Origin: Candidatus Latescibacterota bacterium
GTDB lineage: Bacteria; Latescibacterota; UBA2968; UBA8231
Direction of reading: 5' to 3'
Length of the DNA: 64,000 nt
Assembly (NCBI GenBank): GCA_965223905.1
Contig: CBDCXV010000001.1
Coordinates: 1-64,000, forward strand
Shown here: positions 2,702 to 55,920 of the stretch, one piece after another
Position numbering within the stretch: position 1 is the first letter of the stretch
How the letters are laid out: the number at the start of each line of letters is the position of its first letter
The notes under the pieces: model-generated
The model's database searches: none
Told to the model about the DNA's origin: nothing
What the model saw: only the letters and a program-made list of their open reading frames with translations
Program-made: the position numbers and the translations under genes

Positions 2702-3178
2702 TTGGCGGGCTTCCCGGGGACGCCCCTGCCGGGCGGCTCGGGTATCGATTTCGATCACGTCAAAGGTTCGGCCGGGGACTATTTTCTGATCGAGACGATG
2801 GCTGCCGGCGGCGGCGGCGCCGACTTCGACGGCGACGGCCACCTCGACCTCTACCTGGTGAACGGATTCGATCTCGGCGCAATCCACTCCCGACTGACCA
2901 GTCGAGAGCAGGGTGGGGGACACCTGGTGGACGCGCGGGCAATGGAAGCGCGCGGGTCAGCCCCGGCCGACCCCGACAGCTACGCCGTGCAGCTGGCCCC
3001 GGCTGCCGGGGTCCAGGGGCTGGAGGAGGAGGCGCCCCGTATCCGCGGCATCCTCAACATGATCCGCAGGAAGGAACTCTTCAACGGGTACATCGAAGAG
3101 CTGCGGGTACAGTACGCCGGTGAGGTCCGAATCGACGAGGCGGCCCTGTCCCGCATACGCCTTCCGGAAGAAGGCTGA
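2702..3178 (+). pseudogene. Chimeric remnant: FG-GAP/CRTAC1 N-terminus joined to a PPIase (SurA/PrsA-like) C-terminus
   Basis: GIDFDH...YFLIETMAAGGGGADFDGDGHLDLYLVNG, followed by ELFNGYIEELRVQYAGEVRIDEAAL. Confidence 0.5.
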
Positions 3179-3422
3179 ACACCCTTGCCCATCGATCCCG
3201 GTATCGAGCTGAACGGCTGTTGCCGGTTCCCGGCGGCGCCCCGGAGCAGTGGGTCCGGGCTGACCAATAGCCCTGTCCCCAAATTCTCTTGCCATACTTC
3301 CGCCGATCCATTCGAGGGAAAAATCGCGGCTCAATGAAATCTTCCTCCGCCCGGTTTTTTCCCTCAATCCCGCCTCGCGGCCGAATCCCTGCAATCCATC
3401 TCCTGGACAGGACGCCAGCGCC

Positions 3423-51939: not shown

Positions 51940-53016
51940 ATGAATCGCAAAGACACCGATACAGACTGGTTTTCAGTCGAACCCCCTGAGCCGCCCAACC
52001 AGGGGATCATGTTCGTGAATCATGCCAGGGCCGGCCGCAGCGGTCACCTGGGCCATGCCCTGGTCGAGTACGCGCCGGGCAGGATACTGGCCTTCTACGC
52101 CAACTGCTCCGATTTCCAGAAGGGCCACAGCGGCGATGGCTGGATGGAATTCAAGCGCTCCGAGGACGGCGGACGCACCTGGAGCGAGCCGGCCGTTCTC
52201 GAATACTCAAGGCAGACCTACGACCAGGGGGTCGGGCACTCGGTCATGTGCGAAAAGGCGCTGCGGGCGGACGACGGAGCGATTCTCCTGTTCAACCTGG
52301 AGTGCCGCGGCAAGGGCTGGCAGCCGCTGGCGCTTCCGACCTGTCTGCGCAGCACCGATTGCGGTTCCACCTGGGATCCGGCAGGACCCATCGGCGATGA
52401 GCCCGCGCGCATCTGGGATGCAGTTCTTCACGAAGCCTGCATTCTCGTCCTGGAGTTATGCAACGACAGCGCTGTCCATTGGTACGGCAACCTGCCGGAG
52501 CACCATTACGCTCTCCATGTCAGCCAGGACAATGGTCTCACCTTCTCCCGACGCAGCGTCCTTCCCTTCGACGTTCAGGGACGCGGCTACGGGACCATGG
52601 CCACTCTGCCCGACGGCAGGCTCATCGCCTATGTCTACAACATCGATGACGAAAAGCATCTCGACTACGTGACCAGCGACGACGGCGGTTGCACGTGGAG
52701 CTCCGTGCAAACCGCCTTCATGGCCAAGAAAATTCGCAACCCGCAGATGGCGGCGTTCAGGGACGGCTTCGTTCTGCACGGCCGCAGTGGCAACAAGGGC
52801 GAGGGGAGGAATCACTTCGTCCTCTATACCTCGCGGGATGGAGAGAATTGGGACGCCGGCCGTTATCTACGCATGGGCGAAGCGGGCGCCGGCGCCTACT
52901 CCAACAACCTGATCGTCAGAAACCCGGACACAGGGCTGCCTGAAGGATTGCTCATCCAGGCTTCTCACGCCTACGAGCAAAAAATGACCAACGTGCTGCA
53001 TTGGTGGTTGCGATAG
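51940..53016 (+). CDS. BNR/Asp-box sialidase-family protein
   Basis: Asp-boxes SEDGGRTWS, STDCGSTWD, SQDNGLTFS, SDDGGCTWS and SRDGENW. Confidence 0.85.
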   Translation: MNRKDTDTDWFSVEPPEPPNQGIMFVNHARAGRSGHLGHALVEYAPGRILAFYANCSDFQKGHSGDGWMEFKRSEDGGRTWSEPAVLEYSRQTYDQGVGHSVMCEKALRADDGAILLFNLECRGKGWQPLALPTCLRSTDCGSTWDPAGPIGDEPARIWDAVLHEACILVLELCNDSAVHWYGNLPEHHYALHVSQDNGLTFSRRSVLPFDVQGRGYGTMATLPDGRLIAYVYNIDDEKHLDYVTSDDGGCTWSSVQTAFMAKKIRNPQMAAFRDGFVLHGRSGNKGEGRNHFVLYTSRDGENWDAGRYLRMGEAGAGAYSNNLIVRNPDTGLPEGLLIQASHAYEQKMTNVLHWWLR

Positions 53017-53056
53017 TGGCTCTCGTGTGCGCGGCAGTCGCCCCGAGCCCCGGCGT

Positions 53057-53821
53057 CTAGCCCGCCGGCCGTACTCGTGACCGCTGCTCCTCGGTCATGT
53101 CGTCCGCCACTTCGGGGCCGTGGGTTCCGAAGCTCATGAAGCCCGGGGTGTATCGATAGATCAGAGCGCGGCGCTGATGTTCGCCGTTCCACTTCAGGGT
53201 GCCGTGGGTGCAGGCCTCGACGAAGATCACGGCATCGCCCGCCCGGACGTGAATCTCCTTGACCAGCTCCTGGTGTGCTTCGTAGAACTGCAGCGCCTGC
53301 GGCAGGGGGTAATTCGACTTGTGGCCGCCGGGGACGATCGCCAGGCCCCCGTCGCCGGGTCCCTCGTCAGACAGCATGAACTCCACGACGGTCATGCCGC
53401 AGTAGATCTTGCCGTGTTTCCACATGTAGGTCTGGGTGAAGTCGGGCCGCTCAACGCCGCCGCCGTGCAGGTAGTGGCCGGCACATCCGGTCTCAATTGT
53501 CACCAGGTCGGGCCCGACGTTGATGCGCCAGCCGCTTCCGAGGATTTCGGTCAGGTAGGAACTGACGCGCGGGTGCACGAGCAGTTCGCGGAAGGGTTCG
53601 CACCAGGGGGCGTCCCAGGTGAGCATGCCGGACATCCAATGCTGCCGAACCTCGCTCGCCAGCACCTGCGAGTCGCCTTCCAACCGCCGTTCGTGGGGCT
53701 CGAGCTGATCGGCGTGATGATCTATGGCCCGGTTGCACCGCGCCACCTGGTCCGGCGACATCACTTCCGGAAGCACGAGGTAACCGTTCAGGTCGAAGAC
53801 GTACTTCGCGTCGTCGTTCAC
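53057..53821 (-). CDS. PhyH-like dioxygenase
   Basis: YVFDLNGYLVL, LHGG, GGLAIVPGGHK and THGT..W....RR. GTG start overlaps the upstream TGA (alternative ATG at 53833). Confidence 0.85.
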   Translation of the reverse strand: MNDDAKYVFDLNGYLVLPEVMSPDQVARCNRAIDHHADQLEPHERRLEGDSQVLASEVRQHWMSGMLTWDAPWCEPFRELLVHPRVSSYLTEILGSGWRINVGPDLVTIETGCAGHYLHGGGVERPDFTQTYMWKHGKIYCGMTVVEFMLSDEGPGDGGLAIVPGGHKSNYPLPQALQFYEAHQELVKEIHVRAGDAVIFVEACTHGTLKWNGEHQRRALIYRYTPGFMSFGTHGPEVADDMTEEQRSRVRPAG

Positions 53822-54507
53822 TGTCCGCTCCATTCAACTTCGCGCCTTTTTTCCAACCGGCTCGAGACTTCCTTTTCCACATCCTCGTGATCTATCTTGC
53901 CCACCCACTGAGCTACGATCTGACCGTCCCGGTCGAGAAGAAACATTGCAGGAATCGCTTTCACCTTGAACTGATGCCAGGCGGGCGTCTGTTTCGCGTC
54001 AACGAAGATGGGGTATGTAATGTCCATTTTTTCCACCATCTTCTTGATCTTCCTGCCCCGGTCCTTGTCTTCATCTATGGACACACCCAGAACTTCAACC
54101 CCCTTGTCGGAAAAAGCGCTGTAGAGTTGTTGCAACCGGGGCATGGTCTCGAGACAAGGTTTGCACCAGGTCGCCCAGAAATCCACGAGCACGATTTTGC
54201 CGTTCAAATCTCCCAACGCCTTGTCCCCGCCCTCCAGCGTTTCCACGACGAAGGCTGGTGCGGGTCGAGGAAATACCGGCGGTAAATAGGCCGCGGGATC
54301 CAAGTCAAATTCCATTTTACAATCTTCCGAACAAAAGTAGTACATCTTGCCATCATGTTCCGAATGGCCCTTGACCTTTTCCAACTCCGTCTCCCCGGCC
54401 TTCAATGCACAGACACTGCAAAGAGCCTTGTCGGGAATCTGAGCTTCAGCTGCAAGCGAAACCGAACTTGCCAAAACGATCAGAAATGAAAAATTGCAAA
54501 AACGCAT
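53818..54507 (-). CDS. Secreted YHS/TRASH-domain + TlpA-type thiol-disulfide oxidoreductase
   Basis: Signal peptide, CSVC...YYFCSEDCKMEFDLDPAAY (YHS), then DFWATWCKPC...VKAIP (TlpA). RBS GGAGGA. Confidence 0.9.
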   Translation of the reverse strand: MRFCNFSFLIVLASSVSLAAEAQIPDKALCSVCALKAGETELEKVKGHSEHDGKMYYFCSEDCKMEFDLDPAAYLPPVFPRPAPAFVVETLEGGDKALGDLNGKIVLVDFWATWCKPCLETMPRLQQLYSAFSDKGVEVLGVSIDEDKDRGRKIKKMVEKMDITYPIFVDAKQTPAWHQFKVKAIPAMFLLDRDGQIVAQWVGKIDHEDVEKEVSSRLEKRREVEWSGQ

Positions 54508-54519
54508 TGGTCCTCCACA

Positions 54520-55185
54520 CTAGAATCCAAGAGAAAGCGAAACACCGATGGTTTCAAGCCACACATACATCAAACTGACGCCGTATTTTGCGGCGAAAAA
54601 ATTCAGCATCACATGCCCCCGGTCGCCATCGTACATCGGTCGAAATGAAAACCCCTTCCCCAACTCGACCCCCACGCCAAAGGGAACATTTATGCCCCCA
54701 TCCCATTCGGAGTAATTCAAACTGCCGTAAAAAGAAGTGCGCAGCCGGGGTATGTATTTACTTACAGTTGCGAAGTAAGACTGCTCGCCCGCCGGCGAAC
54801 CAATTCGATCCGAGCTCGTGCCCAGAAAGAGCGCCGGACGCGTCTCGGTTTCGGTTAACAGAAACAGCGTAAAAAGAGGTCCTGCCTCTCCTGCTTTTGG
54901 ATTCAGCTCAACCCCGACTTGCAGGCGATGATGCAGGCTGTAATTGGCCGTAAACCGCCACTGCGGACGGTCCATCGACGTATCTACATACCGCCCCGAA
55001 AATGCATATTTCGTATGAATGCCACTCCCCCGGAGCGGTGCGCCTTCGCCAGGTCAGCCCACTCAGGTAGGCGTCATCGAAAACGTCGGCCGTTCACTCC
55101 GCGTAGAATCCGTTTGCGTTTCCTGGGCAAAAACAGGTGAGGTGCCCAGGTATATGGTCAAAAGAAAAAGAGGAAAGTTCATCAT
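54520..55185 (-). CDS. Candidate UxxU di-selenoprotein, outer-membrane beta-barrel-like (221 aa with read-through of two TGA)
   Basis: One frame: signal peptide MMNFPLFLLTIYLGTSPVFA, TGA at 55063-55065 and 55054-55056 (U41-V-G-U44-P), then open into ORF 54520..54975, which ends IGVSLSLGF. Confidence 0.7.
55022..55038 (-). promoter_or_regulatory. Putative bacterial SECIS hairpin
   Basis: mRNA CCGCUCC-GGG-GGAGUGG. The loop starts 22 nt after the second UGA and 31 nt after the first. Confidence 0.5.
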
Positions 55186-55599
55186 CGTGTTCCGTCTGCA
55201 TAGAATGAAGGGTCTATGCATACAAAAAACGTCTCCCGACCCATCACCGCAAACCCTGTGCAACGACCCGCACCTTGCGCGCCCGGCTGCGATCCCGGCC
55301 ACTTCGCCTTCAGATGAATGGGTGCAACGCGGAAAATTGCAACGGCGGTCGGAATTTACCTGGCCAATGCCTCCCGACCGCGATGGAGAGCGCCAAACCC
55401 AGGGCTTTCTGGCTTCCACCCACCGCGCCGGAACCGGTGGACCAGCCCGGCTTCCAGAAGGTACATTCGCACTACCGGGGCAACGAGATGCCGGCCCGAT
55501 TACGGAGTGGATGACTTCGTCGAGAGCTGAGTGATCCGGCGCCTCGCAACCCAACGCAGCGAACATCCCCCCTGCATCGGTAATGCAAAGGAGTGGACT

Positions 55600-55920
55600 A
55601 TGTATTCAACTGGACAGACGTACCAGCTCAAACCCGGCTTCTACGACCAGTACAAGAAAGCCCACGATGAGCTGTGGCCCGAGCTCGCAGAGGCGATGGC
55701 CGCCAAGGGGGTGAACATGGTGATCTACCGGTACGGAGACCGCCTGTTCCTCTACGCCACGGCGCCGTCACGGGAGCATTTCGAGCAGAGTCACGCCGGG
55801 GAAAAAGCCCAGGAATGGCTGGAGTACATGGCGACGATGATGGTCACCGGAGAGGACGGCAAGACCATCGTCGAAGAAATGGAAATGGCCTTTTCGTTCG
55901 GTGCGTTCACGGCTGACTAG
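55600..55920 (+). CDS. L-rhamnose mutarotase family protein
   Basis: LKPG...YKKAHDELWPE and W..YM. RBS AAGGAG. Confidence 0.8.
   Translation: MYSTGQTYQLKPGFYDQYKKAHDELWPELAEAMAAKGVNMVIYRYGDRLFLYATAPSREHFEQSHAGEKAQEWLEYMATMMVTGEDGKTIVEEMEMAFSFGAFTAD

What the first reader, a model, noticed from the sequence alone, without database searches (positions are those of the whole stretch)
54520..55185. Hidden double-selenocysteine (UxxU) outer-membrane protein split by the ORF caller
Seen: the tail of ORF 55063..55566 and ORF 54520..54975 share a frame. They are joined by ACC TGA GTG GGC TGA CCT GGC..., giving MMNFPLFLLTIYLGTSPVFA|QETQ...MTPT-U-V-G-U-PGEGAPLRGSGIHTKYAFSGRYVDTSMDRPQW...IGVSLSLGF. The only interruptions are two TGA codons at exact CxxC spacing, followed by Pro. 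Read-through supplies the signal peptide that the barrel-like domain (alternating hydrophobic strands, terminal Phe) otherwise lacks. Established: UGA encodes Sec when a SECIS follows, and UxxU is rare but known in thioredoxin-fold selenoprotein L. Inference: a di-selenide motif on a beta-barrel protein, which I do not recognise as described. No selA/selB/selD genes are in this window.
Basis: partly seen in the sequence, partly recalled or inferred. Interest (0 to 1): 0.93.

Follow-up and report, generated by a model that had tools for sequence, protein, structure and literature searches.

The report
Double-selenocysteine outer-membrane barrel protein family
This gene, which annotation pipelines cut in two, encodes a secreted 12-stranded barrel protein with two selenocysteines three residues apart; it appears to belong to an undescribed selenoprotein family found in many bacterial phyla.

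Summary
On the minus strand, 55185..54520 is one 221-codon frame interrupted only by two TGA codons (residues 41 and 44).

- **Sec machinery:** the genome holds selD, selB, selA and a tRNA-Sec with anticodon tca.
- **Conservation:** every related locus that includes the site has TGA at both positions. That is 79 of 80 loci from species-representative genomes; the 80th starts after the site. Identity falls to about 55%, and the records carry at least eight phylum-level labels.
- **Motif:** PT-U-x-x-U-PGEGAPLRGSG is nearly invariant and follows a signal peptide.
- **SECIS-like hairpin:** a 7-bp hairpin lies 15 nt after the second TGA. It is paired in 98.9% of cells, with compensatory changes at synonymous sites.
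- **Cys relatives:** a distant subfamily has CxxC at the aligned positions and lacks the hairpin. One member is UxxC and has it.
- **Fold:** the AlphaFold2 model is a 12-stranded barrel, Z about 16 to FapF, KdgM and COG4313 outer-membrane channels.
- **Partner:** a YHS-TlpA periplasmic thioredoxin gene follows in 57 of 80 loci. In the Cys subfamily the YHS domains are fused to the barrel and a thioredoxin gene follows.

The protein matches no Pfam or NCBIfam model, and none of the 119 families in a 2026 inventory fits it. Its function is inferred, not shown: soft-metal or redox handling at the outer membrane.

The parts
54520..55185 (-). Whole selenoprotein gene: 221 codons plus the TAG stop, read through two TGA codons
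   Evidence: Full-length homologs with 2 in-frame TGA.
55126..55185 (-). Signal peptide, residues 1-20 (MMNFPLFLLTIYLGTSPVFA, predicted cleavage before QETQ)
   Evidence: Read from the sequence. A hydrophobic N-terminal segment of similar length precedes the motif in nearly all of the 77 loci examined. No signal-peptide predictor was available, so the cleavage site is inferred.
55063..55065 (-). First TGA, codon 41 (Sec)
   Evidence: TGA in 79 of 79 related loci that include the site. Aligns with Cys of the CxxC subfamily.
55054..55056 (-). Second TGA, codon 44 (Sec)
   Evidence: Same as for the first TGA.
55022..55038 (-). SECIS-like hairpin CCGCUCC-GGG-GGAGUGG. The stem starts 15 nt after the second TGA and 24 nt after the first.
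   Evidence: 98.9% of 546 cells paired. Pair 50-62 is GC 49, GU 16, AU 10. Pair 53-59 is CG 55, UA 22. 0 of 500 shuffles reach the observed score, and slid controls pair in 29-69% of cells. RNAalifold finds the same helix. The helix is present in the UxxC member L117 and absent in six CxxC members.
54523..55008 (-). 12-stranded beta-barrel domain, residues 60-221, ending in Phe
   Evidence: AlphaFold2 model: 12 strands between residues 60 and 220, with block pLDDT 77-92. Foldseek and VIA-align matches to 12-stranded outer-membrane barrels. The terminal Phe is kept in at least 90% of 46 sequences.
53818..54507 (-). Partner gene: signal peptide, YHS/TRASH domain with four invariant Cys, and a TlpA/ResA-like thioredoxin fold (WATWCKPC)
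   Evidence: Pfam and NCBIfam. Found directly downstream on the same strand in 57 of 80 loci. Invariant residues C30, C33, C59, C63, C115 and C118.

Best explanation
The gene encodes one secreted protein of 221 residues. Both TGA codons are decoded as selenocysteine by the genome's SelA/SelB/SelD/tRNA-Sec system. I infer that a single hairpin 15 nt after the second TGA, and 24 nt after the first, recruits SelB for both.

After signal-peptide cleavage, the mature protein has two parts. The first is a roughly 40-residue N-terminal segment carrying the nearly invariant motif PT-U-x-x-U-PGEGAPLRGSG. The second is a 12-stranded outer-membrane beta-barrel. Both ends of an even-stranded barrel face the periplasm, so the U-x-x-U site should sit at the periplasmic mouth or inside the lumen.

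The protein works together with the periplasmic protein encoded next to it, which has a four-Cys YHS/TRASH metal-binding domain fused to a TlpA-like thiol:disulfide oxidoreductase.

The most likely mechanism is inferred, at about 45%. The two selenols form a soft-metal or metalloid binding and hand-over site on an outer-membrane channel, with copper-like ions as the best guess. The thioredoxin domain keeps the site reduced, and the YHS domain passes the ligand on.

- **Shown here:** conserved dual TGA, Sec machinery, covarying hairpin, Cys-for-Sec relatives, barrel fold in the model, and gene linkage plus domain shuffling with YHS and thioredoxin modules.
- **Inferred:** actual Sec insertion, outer-membrane location, topology, the ligand, and the direction of transport.
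For: **(1) Reading frame and conservation**
- One frame with only two TGA interruptions.
- 10 of 10 full-length matches in 61 related genomes have 2 TGA. The 11th match is cut off by a contig end.
- 79 of the 80 best loci have TGA at both sites. These 80 are the ones kept out of 171 relatives found in the genome collection. The 80th starts after the site.
- No TGG, TGC or TGT occurs at either site in these loci.

**(2) Sec machinery**
- selD scores 367 bits and itself holds 1 in-frame TGA. selB scores 322 bits, 345 with its C-terminal part. selA scores 541 bits. tRNA-Sec scores 72.6 bits, and ARAGORN reads its anticodon as tca.
- selB is over the family cut-off in 11 of 11 carrier genomes.

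**(3) Hairpin**
- 98.9% of cells are paired, and two pairs show compensatory changes at synonymous third positions (32 cells). 0 of 500 shuffles reach the observed score, and slid controls pair in 29-69% of cells.
- RNAalifold finds the same helix independently.
- Folding energy of the 30-nt window: mean -12.5 kcal/mol in 77 Sec forms, -18.4 in the UxxC locus L117, and -3.9 to -8.2 in six CxxC loci.

**(4) Cys relatives**
- The profile search finds 233 relatives at E <= 0.001. Of the 18 I fetched, 8 have CxxC before the first strand, and 5 of them align column for column with U41 and U44 in the 12-row alignment.
- Their codons are TGC or TGT in 6 metagenome loci, and TGA..TGT in a 7th.

**(5) Fold**
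- Model pLDDT 81.4, pTM 0.75, 12 strands.
- COG4313 channel 4rl8_A: Z 16.4, rmsd 2.6, 166 residues aligned. FapF 5o65_A: Z 16.3. KdgM 4pr7_A: Z 16.2.
- Foldseek's best match is FapF at E 4e-5. KdgM scores 0.66 normalised by the target's length.

**(6) Partner**
- The YHS-TlpA gene lies directly downstream in 57 of 80 loci.
- In the Cys subfamily, 4 of 7 loci have two or three YHS-type repeats fused in front of the CxxC barrel. Each of the 4 is followed by a thioredoxin-fold ORF of about 160 aa.

**(7) Transcription, a weak hint only**
- Contigs in three RNA libraries of one study bridge both TGAs, covering 54987..55191.
Against: - No protein-level evidence exists for Sec insertion, and none for a diselenide.
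- The window's own 86-nt stretch does not fold significantly better than shuffles (z -1.38). The hairpin rests on comparative evidence.
- Rfam has no match for the hairpin, and bSECISearch was not available.
- One hairpin serving two UGAs at spacings of 15 and 24 nt is inferred, not shown.
- The model's N-terminal segment, including the UxxU site, has low confidence (block pLDDT 49-66), so its position is uncertain.
- The outer-membrane location rests on fold likeness and a terminal Phe only.
- The partner gene is not within 3 kb in 23 of 80 loci. 17 of these carry a Poribacteria label (16 of them with sequence for 3 kb downstream), and 4 are cut off by a contig end soon after the gene.
- The RNA-library contigs may come from DNA carried over into the libraries.
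- The metal ligand is a guess drawn from what YHS domains and CxxC motifs are annotated as. No metal gene was seen as a conserved neighbour.
Confidence: 0.85

Rival explanations
1. It is the same selenoprotein and barrel, but the U-x-x-U pair is a catalytic redox centre rather than a metal site. It would cycle between diselenide and diselenol to reduce a periplasmic or incoming oxidant such as peroxide, selenite, tellurite or a disulfide. The TlpA-like domain would recycle it, and the YHS domain would be a structural zinc ribbon or a docking module.
For: - The 2026 review says most known prokaryotic selenoproteins have, or are predicted to have, redox roles built on UxxC or CxxU motifs (PMC13188914, section 7 read).
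- The conserved partner is a thiol:disulfide oxidoreductase with an invariant WATWCxPC motif.
- No metal transporter or metal enzyme was seen as a conserved neighbour.
Against: - The YHS/TRASH module has four invariant Cys and moves between the partner and the barrel protein. That suggests it takes part directly rather than serving as a scaffold.
- The redox motif sits on a channel-type barrel, not on a thioredoxin fold.
- A diselenide is generally harder to reduce than a disulfide (recalled, not tested here), which would make recycling by a Cys-based TlpA unfavourable.
Confidence: 0.3
2. The two TGA codons are true stops. In that case the upstream ORF and the 151-codon downstream ORF are separate products or a dead gene, and only the C-terminal barrel fragment is made.
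For: Gene callers annotate only the C-terminal 130-166 residues in nearly all database entries. 118 of the best 120 hits cover 54-77% of the query.
Against: - A barrel starting at Met71 would lack a signal peptide and its first strand.
- The stretch upstream of the TGAs keeps an open frame and a signal peptide across phyla.
- The 16 residues around the TGAs are the best-conserved part of the protein.
- TGA is kept at both sites in 79 of 79 loci, whereas real decay looks different. L077 has an extra in-frame stop at the invariant Trp. L048 has lost its N-terminus and has hairpin mismatches.
Confidence: 0.02
3. TGA is read as Trp or another standard residue, either through an alternative genetic code or through general suppression, rather than as Sec.
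For: Three database proteins print W at the sites: P0016 and P0060 and P0213.
Against: - selB and selA in this genome have no internal stops, and selD has only the single TGA that fits the Sec-containing form of SelD. The genome therefore does not read TGA as sense in general.
- TGG never replaces TGA at either site in 79 loci, which a Trp reading would predict.
- P0060 is 97% identical to L097, which has TGA at both sites. P0213 matches L093, which also has TGA.
- The cluster of P0016 also holds a 161-aa member, the length expected if the frame is cut at the TGAs.
- Relatives have Cys, not Trp, at the aligned sites.
Confidence: 0.02
4. It is a real selenoprotein, but the barrel is a soluble periplasmic or secreted beta-barrel rather than a membrane channel.
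For: - No membrane-topology predictor or experiment was available.
- A few soluble barrels appear low in the structure list, such as the phycobiliprotein lyase CPES 4tq2_A at Z 8.4.
Against: - The top 20 or so structural matches are all outer-membrane barrels at Z 10-16.4, twice the score of the best soluble barrel.
- The protein has twelve strands with short turns and a nearly invariant C-terminal Phe.
Confidence: 0.08

Closest known systems
Known prokaryotic UxxU selenoproteins: Prx-like thiol:disulfide oxidoreductase (PF00578), the metal-binding 'putative mercuric reductase' protein (NF041115) and the FmdB-family protein (TIGR02605). All three are listed in Table 1 of PMC13188914.
   Same: Two Sec residues at CxxC spacing, each family with Cys-containing relatives. 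NF041115 is annotated as metal-binding, which is the role I propose here.
   Different: There is no sequence relation: P0001 matches no Pfam or NCBIfam model at E <= 0.1. The fold differs, since here the motif sits on the N-terminal extension of a secreted 12-stranded barrel. In every close member seen here both positions are Sec.
Outer-membrane selenoproteins: the GSU2204 / MtrB-PioB family barrel (NF041027) and the FCYXU-type TonB-dependent receptor (NF049945), both in Table 1 of PMC13188914.
   Same: They set the precedent for Sec in outer-membrane beta-barrel proteins.
   Different: Those families have one Sec each and much larger barrels. The NCBIfam scan gave no match to either.
12-stranded outer-membrane barrels: COG4313 channel (4rl8), FapF (5o65), KdgM/NanC porins (4pr7, 2wjr) and autotransporter beta-domains (4mee, 1uyo).
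   Same: The predicted fold and strand number are the same: Z 13.9-16.4, rmsd 2.5-2.8 A, 152-171 residues aligned. With FapF, COG4313 and AIDA-I the alignment extends into model residues 31-43, that is, into the N-terminal segment.
   Different: Sequence identity is 6-15%, and a profile search of PDB sequences finds nothing at E <= 1. None of these is known to me to carry a CxxC or UxxU motif (recalled).
Periplasmic TlpA/ResA/DsbE-type reductases, for the partner protein.
   Same: The partner has the thioredoxin fold with a WCxxC motif. It matches ResA at E 2.5e-32 and TlpA at 3.4e-19, both below the curated cut-offs.
   Different: The partner has an N-terminal four-Cys YHS/TRASH domain, and its apparent client is a barrel protein rather than a cytochrome or Sco/CoxB.
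Campylobacter jejuni fetMP-fetABCDEF cluster (PMC10783030, passages read).
   Same: It combines a periplasmic YHS domain, CXXC motifs (the DUF2318 domain of FetA) and periplasmic thioredoxins (FetE and FetF) in a metal-uptake gene cluster.
   Different: The carrier there is an inner-membrane protein, there is no Sec, and homology to the barrel was not tested. This is an analogy only.
PcoB, an outer-membrane copper transporter (7pge).
   Same: It is an outer-membrane barrel implicated in copper passage. The structural match is Z 9.1.
   Different: The match is much weaker than to other 12-stranded barrels, no sequence relation was found, and it lacks the CxxC/UxxU extension.

Membership tests
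Bacterial selenoprotein (SelB/SECIS-dependent UGA recoding) | In-frame TGA conserved among homologs, with coding conservation on both sides | tested here: met
   79 of 79 loci that include the site have TGA at both positions. A signal peptide lies upstream and an invariant motif downstream.
Bacterial selenoprotein (SelB/SECIS-dependent UGA recoding) | The genome encodes selA, selB, selD and tRNA-Sec | tested here: met
   All four score over the curated cut-offs in G000. ARAGORN reads tRNA-SeC with anticodon tca.
Bacterial selenoprotein (SelB/SECIS-dependent UGA recoding) | A stem-loop shortly downstream of the UGA (SECIS) | tested here: met
   A 7-bp hairpin with a G-rich loop of 3 nt lies 15 and 24 nt after the two TGAs. 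It shows covariation and passes the controls. It was not scored with bSECISearch, and SelB binding is untested.
Bacterial selenoprotein (SelB/SECIS-dependent UGA recoding) | Homologs with Cys at the Sec position | tested here: met
   A CxxC subfamily aligns at both positions. The codons are TGY in 6 loci and TGA..TGT in 1.
Bacterial selenoprotein (SelB/SECIS-dependent UGA recoding) | Selenium incorporated into the polypeptide | not testable with these tools
   This needs 75Se labelling or mass spectrometry.
Known UxxU or outer-membrane selenoprotein families with NCBIfam or Pfam models (NF041115, TIGR02605, PF00578, NF041027, NF049945) | A score against the family model | tested here: not met
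   P0001 matched 0 families at E <= 0.1 in Pfam-A and in NCBIfam release 20.0.
Outer-membrane 12-stranded beta-barrel (FapF, KdgM, COG4313 and autotransporter type fold) | Twelve antiparallel strands closing a barrel | tested here: met
   This holds for the AlphaFold2 model only: 12 strands, barrel blocks at pLDDT 77-92, and Z 14-16.4 to solved 12-stranded barrels.
Outer-membrane 12-stranded beta-barrel (FapF, KdgM, COG4313 and autotransporter type fold) | Sequence homology to a named family | tested here: inconclusive
   No Pfam match. No PDB sequence match at E <= 1. Identity in the structural alignments is 6-15%.
Outer-membrane 12-stranded beta-barrel (FapF, KdgM, COG4313 and autotransporter type fold) | Insertion in the outer membrane | not testable with these tools
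   Support is indirect only: a signal peptide, a C-terminal Phe and fold likeness.
TlpA/ResA-like periplasmic thiol:disulfide oxidoreductase (partner protein) | Thioredoxin fold with a WCxxC active site and an export signal | tested here: met
   Pfam AhpC-TSA at 9e-26, plus Thioredoxin_8 and Redoxin. The WATWCxPC motif is invariant in 31 sequences. Scores are below the curated cut-offs for ResA, TlpA and DsbE, so it is a relative and not an equivalog.

The most novel reading that the evidence does not exclude
An obligate two-selenocysteine site sits on the periplasmic extension, or in the lumen, of a 12-stranded outer-membrane channel. Together with a YHS metal-binding module and a TlpA-like reductase it forms a previously unrecognised three-module envelope system for capturing or gating soft metals or metalloids. 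The system is spread across many uncultured phyla and is invisible in current annotation, because gene callers truncate the protein at the TGAs.
Probability: 0.45. Interest if true: 0.85.

Novelty: new variant of a known kind. Interest (0 to 1): 0.78.

Why it matters
- **A new selenoprotein family.** It would add a family with no Pfam or NCBIfam model to the prokaryotic selenoproteome. It would be one of very few families with two Sec residues, and in the close family no Cys form was seen at either position.
- **Selenium chemistry in a new place.** The site is on an outer-membrane channel, where a diselenol or diselenide has not been described in what I could search.
- **A systematic annotation error.** 118 of the best 120 database entries are N-terminally truncated fragments, and the few that carry a source name are called 'hypothetical protein'.
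- **A testable three-module system.** The barrel, the YHS domain and the thioredoxin are linked both by gene order and by domain fusion, which gives a concrete hypothesis for envelope metal or redox handling in Latescibacterota, Poribacteria, Gemmatimonadota, Acidobacteriota and others.
- **A natural case for SelB mechanics.** Two UGAs 6 nt apart appear to be served by one hairpin.

Tried and rejected
- **Single-sequence folding.** The 86 nt after the first TGA gave z -1.38, uninformative on its own.
- **Rfam.** An E-value scan of 54400..55400 found only a chance snoRNA match.
- **Promoter and terminator scan.** The scan of 52900..55700 found nothing above shuffles.
- **PDB sequence search.** A profile search with A3 gave 0 hits at E <= 1.
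- **All-against-all ORF clustering of the 80 loci.** Antisense ORFs in GC-rich DNA dominated it. Apart from the thioredoxin partner it gave only lineage-specific neighbours: GFO/IDH/MocA oxidoreductase, PhyH and a sigma-70 factor in Poribacteria-labelled loci, and hydantoinase B in some Latescibacterota- or Gemmatimonadota-labelled loci. I rejected these as parts of the system.
- **The window's PhyH gene (53057..53833).** It overlaps the partner's stop but recurs in only 1 of 80 loci by tblastn. I rejected it as a part.
- **A second tRNA-Sec-like match (C1:249680).** It is tRNA-Leu with anticodon taa.
- **selB co-occurrence.** It does not discriminate: 53 of 61 relatives have selB, including 42 of 50 non-carriers.
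- **RNA libraries.** Only short contigs over 54987..55191 and small pieces elsewhere were found, and the parts without cover say nothing.
- **ESM Atlas and complex prediction.** Whether the barrel and the partner dock is therefore left open.
- **P0131, which reads C..W at the sites.** It may be a CxxU form read under table 4. I could not get its DNA.
Full report
**Observation.** On the minus strand of the window, a single frame runs from ATG at 55185 to TAG at 54522..54520. It encodes MMNFPLFLLTIYLGTSPVFAQETQ...FSMTPT-TGA-VG-TGA-PGEGAPLRGSGIH...GVSLSLGF. The frame has 221 codons, and its only interruptions are TGA at 55065..55063 (codon 41) and 55056..55054 (codon 44).

**Sec machinery.** The window is C1:1-64000 of a 7.9-Mb, 11-contig assembly.
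- selD is at C10:1272233, scores 367 bits and itself contains one in-frame TGA.
- selB is at C10:1742467, scoring 322 bits, or 345 with its C-terminal part.
- selA is at C2:123382 and scores 541 bits.
- A tRNA-Sec is at C1:301244-301338 and scores 72.6 bits. ARAGORN calls it tRNA-SeC with anticodon tca.
- selB and selA have no internal stops, so the genome does not read TGA as a sense codon in general.
- A second Rfam match over the cut-off turned out to be tRNA-Leu.

**Conservation of the two TGAs.** I searched 61 genomes, the window's own plus 60 relatives, with the read-through protein. Eleven had a match. All 10 full-length matches, at 56-99% identity, contain exactly 2 in-frame TGA. The 11th starts at residue 59 because of a contig end.

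A pattern scan of one genome per species found 171 loci encoding a relative, and the best 80 were kept.
- Their records are labelled Latescibacterota, Gemmatimonadota, Poribacteria, Thermoanaerobaculia/Acidobacteriota/Holophagales, Eisenbacteria, Krumholzibacteriia, Calditrichia, Planctomycetota, Deltaproteobacteria, Deferribacteres, Fibrobacteraceae and Cytophagia.
- The closest, at 93% identity, is a Latescibacterota MAG.
- 78 of the 80 carry TGA-N6-TGA followed by CCN-GGN-GAR-GG.
- L077 also has TGA..TGA with one changed flank codon. It also has an in-frame stop in place of the invariant Trp76 and a broken C-terminus, so it is a decaying copy.
- L061 begins after the site.
- No locus has TGG, TGC or TGT at either position.

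The motif PT-U-x-x-U-PGEGAPLRGSG is the most conserved stretch of the protein. P39, T40, both U positions, P45, G46, E47, G48, L51, R52, G53, S54 and G55 are invariant in 46 sequences. Upstream of the motif the sequence varies. It nevertheless keeps an open frame with a start codon and a hydrophobic, signal-peptide-like segment in nearly all loci. The exceptions are L048, whose N-terminus is truncated, and L106, where my start rule chose an internal ATG.

**The Trp question.** In the 5.8-billion-protein collection there are 767 hits at E <= 0.001. Of the best 120, 118 cover only 54-77% of the query (121-173 aa). These are the fragment called after the TGAs. They have no Pfam domain, and the only names they carry are 'hypothetical protein'.

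Two entries are full length and print W at both sites: P0016 and P0060.
- P0060 is 97% identical to locus L097, whose DNA reads TGA AGT GCG TGA.
- The 90% cluster of P0016 also contains a 161-aa member, the length expected if the frame is cut at the TGAs.
- P0213, another W..W entry, matches L093, which has TGA.

These W residues are gene-caller readings of TGA under table 4. I verified this for P0060 and P0213 and inferred it for P0016.

**SECIS-like hairpin.** I aligned 110 nt around the site from the window and 77 loci. L102 was left out because of N, and the alignment needed no gaps.
- A 7-bp helix, CCRCUYC-GKG-GRAGYGG, occupies columns 48-54 and 58-64, which is window 55038..55022. It starts 15 nt after the second TGA and 24 nt after the first.
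- It is paired in 98.9% of 546 cells.
- Pair 50-62 is GC 49, GU 16, AU 10, other 3. Pair 53-59 is CG 55, UA 22, other 1.
- Both variable pairs join synonymous third-codon positions: Pro CCR with Ser AGY, and Leu CUY with Gly GGR.
- None of 500 column shuffles reaches the observed covariation score or percentage paired. Sliding the 3' arm by 1-3 columns drops pairing to 29-69%.
- RNAalifold predicts the same helix on its own.
- The window's sequence alone is not significantly structured (z -1.38), and Rfam has no match.

**Cys relatives.** A profile of 46 full-length members was searched against 1.84 billion representatives. It found 233 proteins at E <= 0.001. I fetched 18.
- Eight have CxxC about 20 residues before the first strand. 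Seven read PTCAGCAGEA-like and one reads SCALCPS.
- One reads C..W (P0131, untested), and one reads W..W (P0213, see above).
- One starts after the site.
- Seven are barrels with no Cys pair.

In a 12-row alignment that included five of the CxxC proteins, their two Cys fall exactly on U41 and U44.

A metagenome scan with the Cys forms found 7 loci. Six have TGC or TGT at both sites. L117 has TGA..TGT, a UxxC form.

L117 has a hairpin GGCGCUCC-GUG-GGGGCGCC starting 23 nt after its TGA. That is the same place and loop as in the Sec family, but with a different stem sequence. The minimum free energy of the equivalent 30-nt window is -18.4 kcal/mol in L117 and averages -12.5 (sd 2.7) in 77 Sec forms. 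In the six CxxC forms it is only -3.9 to -8.2. The hairpin therefore tracks the TGA, not the protein sequence.

**Fold.** AlphaFold2 on the 46-sequence alignment gave mean pLDDT 81.4 and pTM 0.75. The model has 12 beta strands between residues 60 and 220, with block pLDDT mostly 87-92. Residues 21-59 have low confidence, at 49-66.
- Foldseek against the PDB returns FapF (E 4e-5), designed transmembrane barrels, VhGalP, OEP21, NanC and KdgM.
- The Foldseek-independent search gives COG4313 channel 4rl8_A (Z 16.4, rmsd 2.6, 166 aligned), FapF 5o65_A (Z 16.3), KdgM 4pr7_A (Z 16.2) and autotransporter barrels (Z 13.6-15.3). PcoB scores Z 9.1. The best soluble barrel is near Z 8.
- There is no sequence-level match to Pfam, NCBIfam or PDB chains.
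- The C-terminal Phe is kept in at least 90% of members.

I conclude that this is a secreted 12-stranded barrel of the outer-membrane type. Membrane insertion itself is inferred.

**Partner and domain shuffling.** Twelve nucleotides downstream, 54507..53818 encodes three elements: a signal peptide, a YHS domain (Pfam, 7e-10) and a TlpA/ResA-like thioredoxin fold (AhpC-TSA 9e-26; ResA model 2.5e-32, below cut-off).
- Its ortholog lies on the same strand downstream in 57 of 80 loci. In most it starts within about 100 nt of the stop; the largest gap is about 1.8 kb, in L038.
- In 31 aligned sequences, the four YHS Cys (C30, C33, C59, C63) and the WATWCxPC motif are invariant.
- Of the 23 loci without it, 17 are labelled Poribacteria, of which 16 have 3 kb of downstream sequence. 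Four loci (L040, L081, L093 and the Poribacteria-labelled L097) end at most about 1.2 kb after the gene.
- In the Cys subfamily the modules are rearranged. In 4 of 7 loci the barrel protein itself begins with two or three YHS-type repeats. I recognised these by eye, and Pfam confirmed them on the similar protein P0143 (YHS 9e-15).
- Each of those 4 loci is followed by a thioredoxin-fold ORF of about 160 aa.

The barrel with its C/U-x-x-C/U motif, the YHS module and a periplasmic thioredoxin are thus linked in two ways, by gene order and by fusion.

**Mechanism.** The steps shown and inferred are listed under Best explanation. The core is a real, exported UxxU selenoprotein with a barrel fold that is functionally tied to YHS and thioredoxin modules. 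I put this at about 0.85.

For function I favour a soft-metal or metalloid binding and hand-over site at the periplasmic side of an outer-membrane channel (about 0.45). The site would be kept reduced by the thioredoxin domain. The main rival is a purely catalytic diselenide/diselenol redox centre (about 0.3).

The support for the metal reading is indirect.
- YHS/TRASH domains are annotated as metal-binding.
- One known UxxU family is annotated as metal-binding (Table 1 of PMC13188914).
- The C. jejuni Fet cluster combines a YHS domain, CXXC motifs and periplasmic thioredoxins in metal uptake (PMC10783030, passages read).

No metal gene is a conserved neighbour.

**Transcription.** Three metatranscriptome-labelled runs from one study hold contigs of 171-192 nt covering 54987..55191. 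These bridge the start codon, both TGAs and the hairpin. DNA carry-over cannot be excluded, so this is only a weak hint.

**Novelty.** I read section 7 of a May 2026 review, parts 1 and 2 of 3, including the whole of Table 1 with its 119 families (PMC13188914).
- UxxU appears only in the Prx-like, NF041115 and FmdB families.
- The outer-membrane entries are the MtrB/PioB-type barrel and a TonB-dependent receptor.
- The listed families carry model or domain identifiers. Of the libraries those identifiers come from, I scanned Pfam-A and NCBIfam release 20.0, and this protein matches neither. The identifiers of other kinds (cd, PTHR) were not tested.
- Passages found in the 2022 review, the GOS paper and deep-Sep show nothing matching.
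- Five full-text searches returned no paper describing such a protein.
- Supplementary files were not seen, and subscription journals are not in the library.

Within those limits this is an undescribed selenoprotein family. I file it as a new variant of a known kind: SECIS-dependent selenoproteins with Cys relatives.

**Left open.** A prediction of the barrel-partner complex and an ESM Atlas look-up could not be run.

Noticed in passing
G000 C10:1272233-1273156 (locus L001): The genome's selD match (367 bits) has one in-frame TGA. This fits the known Sec-containing form of selenophosphate synthetase.
   Followed up: no
L077:3001-3441 and L048 around 3101-3210: Two Latescibacterota-labelled genomes carry decaying copies. 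L077 keeps TGA..TGA but has an in-frame stop at the invariant Trp76 and a broken C-terminus. L048 lacks the signal-peptide part, has changed motif residues (LRESS) and has mismatches in the hairpin.
   Followed up: partly
L117:6025-6100: A member of the Cys subfamily has TGA at the first position only (UxxC). Its hairpin is in the same place but has a different stem sequence. The next gene is a Tricorn-like protease, not a thioredoxin.
   Followed up: partly
P0131 (209 aa): A divergent member reads C-V-G-W at the site (PACVGWPGEGQFLGSGS). It could be a CxxU form whose TGA was read as Trp by the gene caller.
   Followed up: no
window 53057..53833 (-): A PhyH-family dioxygenase gene overlaps the end of the partner gene by 16 nt. 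PhyH genes also lie about 2 kb away on the opposite strand in 18 loci, mostly labelled Poribacteria. This probably reflects how common the family is in these genomes.
   Followed up: partly
window 55531..55920 (+): An L-rhamnose mutarotase gene (Pfam rhaM, 9.5e-18) runs divergently from the selenoprotein gene across a spacer of about 345 nt.
   Followed up: no
L121:4599-5324 (-): In one locus with a fused Cys-form barrel, an OmpR-type response regulator (Response_reg plus Trans_reg_C) lies directly upstream and divergent. It could be a regulator of the system.
   Followed up: no
One search hit list: Protein databases hold this family almost only as N-terminally truncated fragments of 121-173 aa. 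The rare full-length entries arise where a gene caller switched to table 4 on short contigs.
   Followed up: yes
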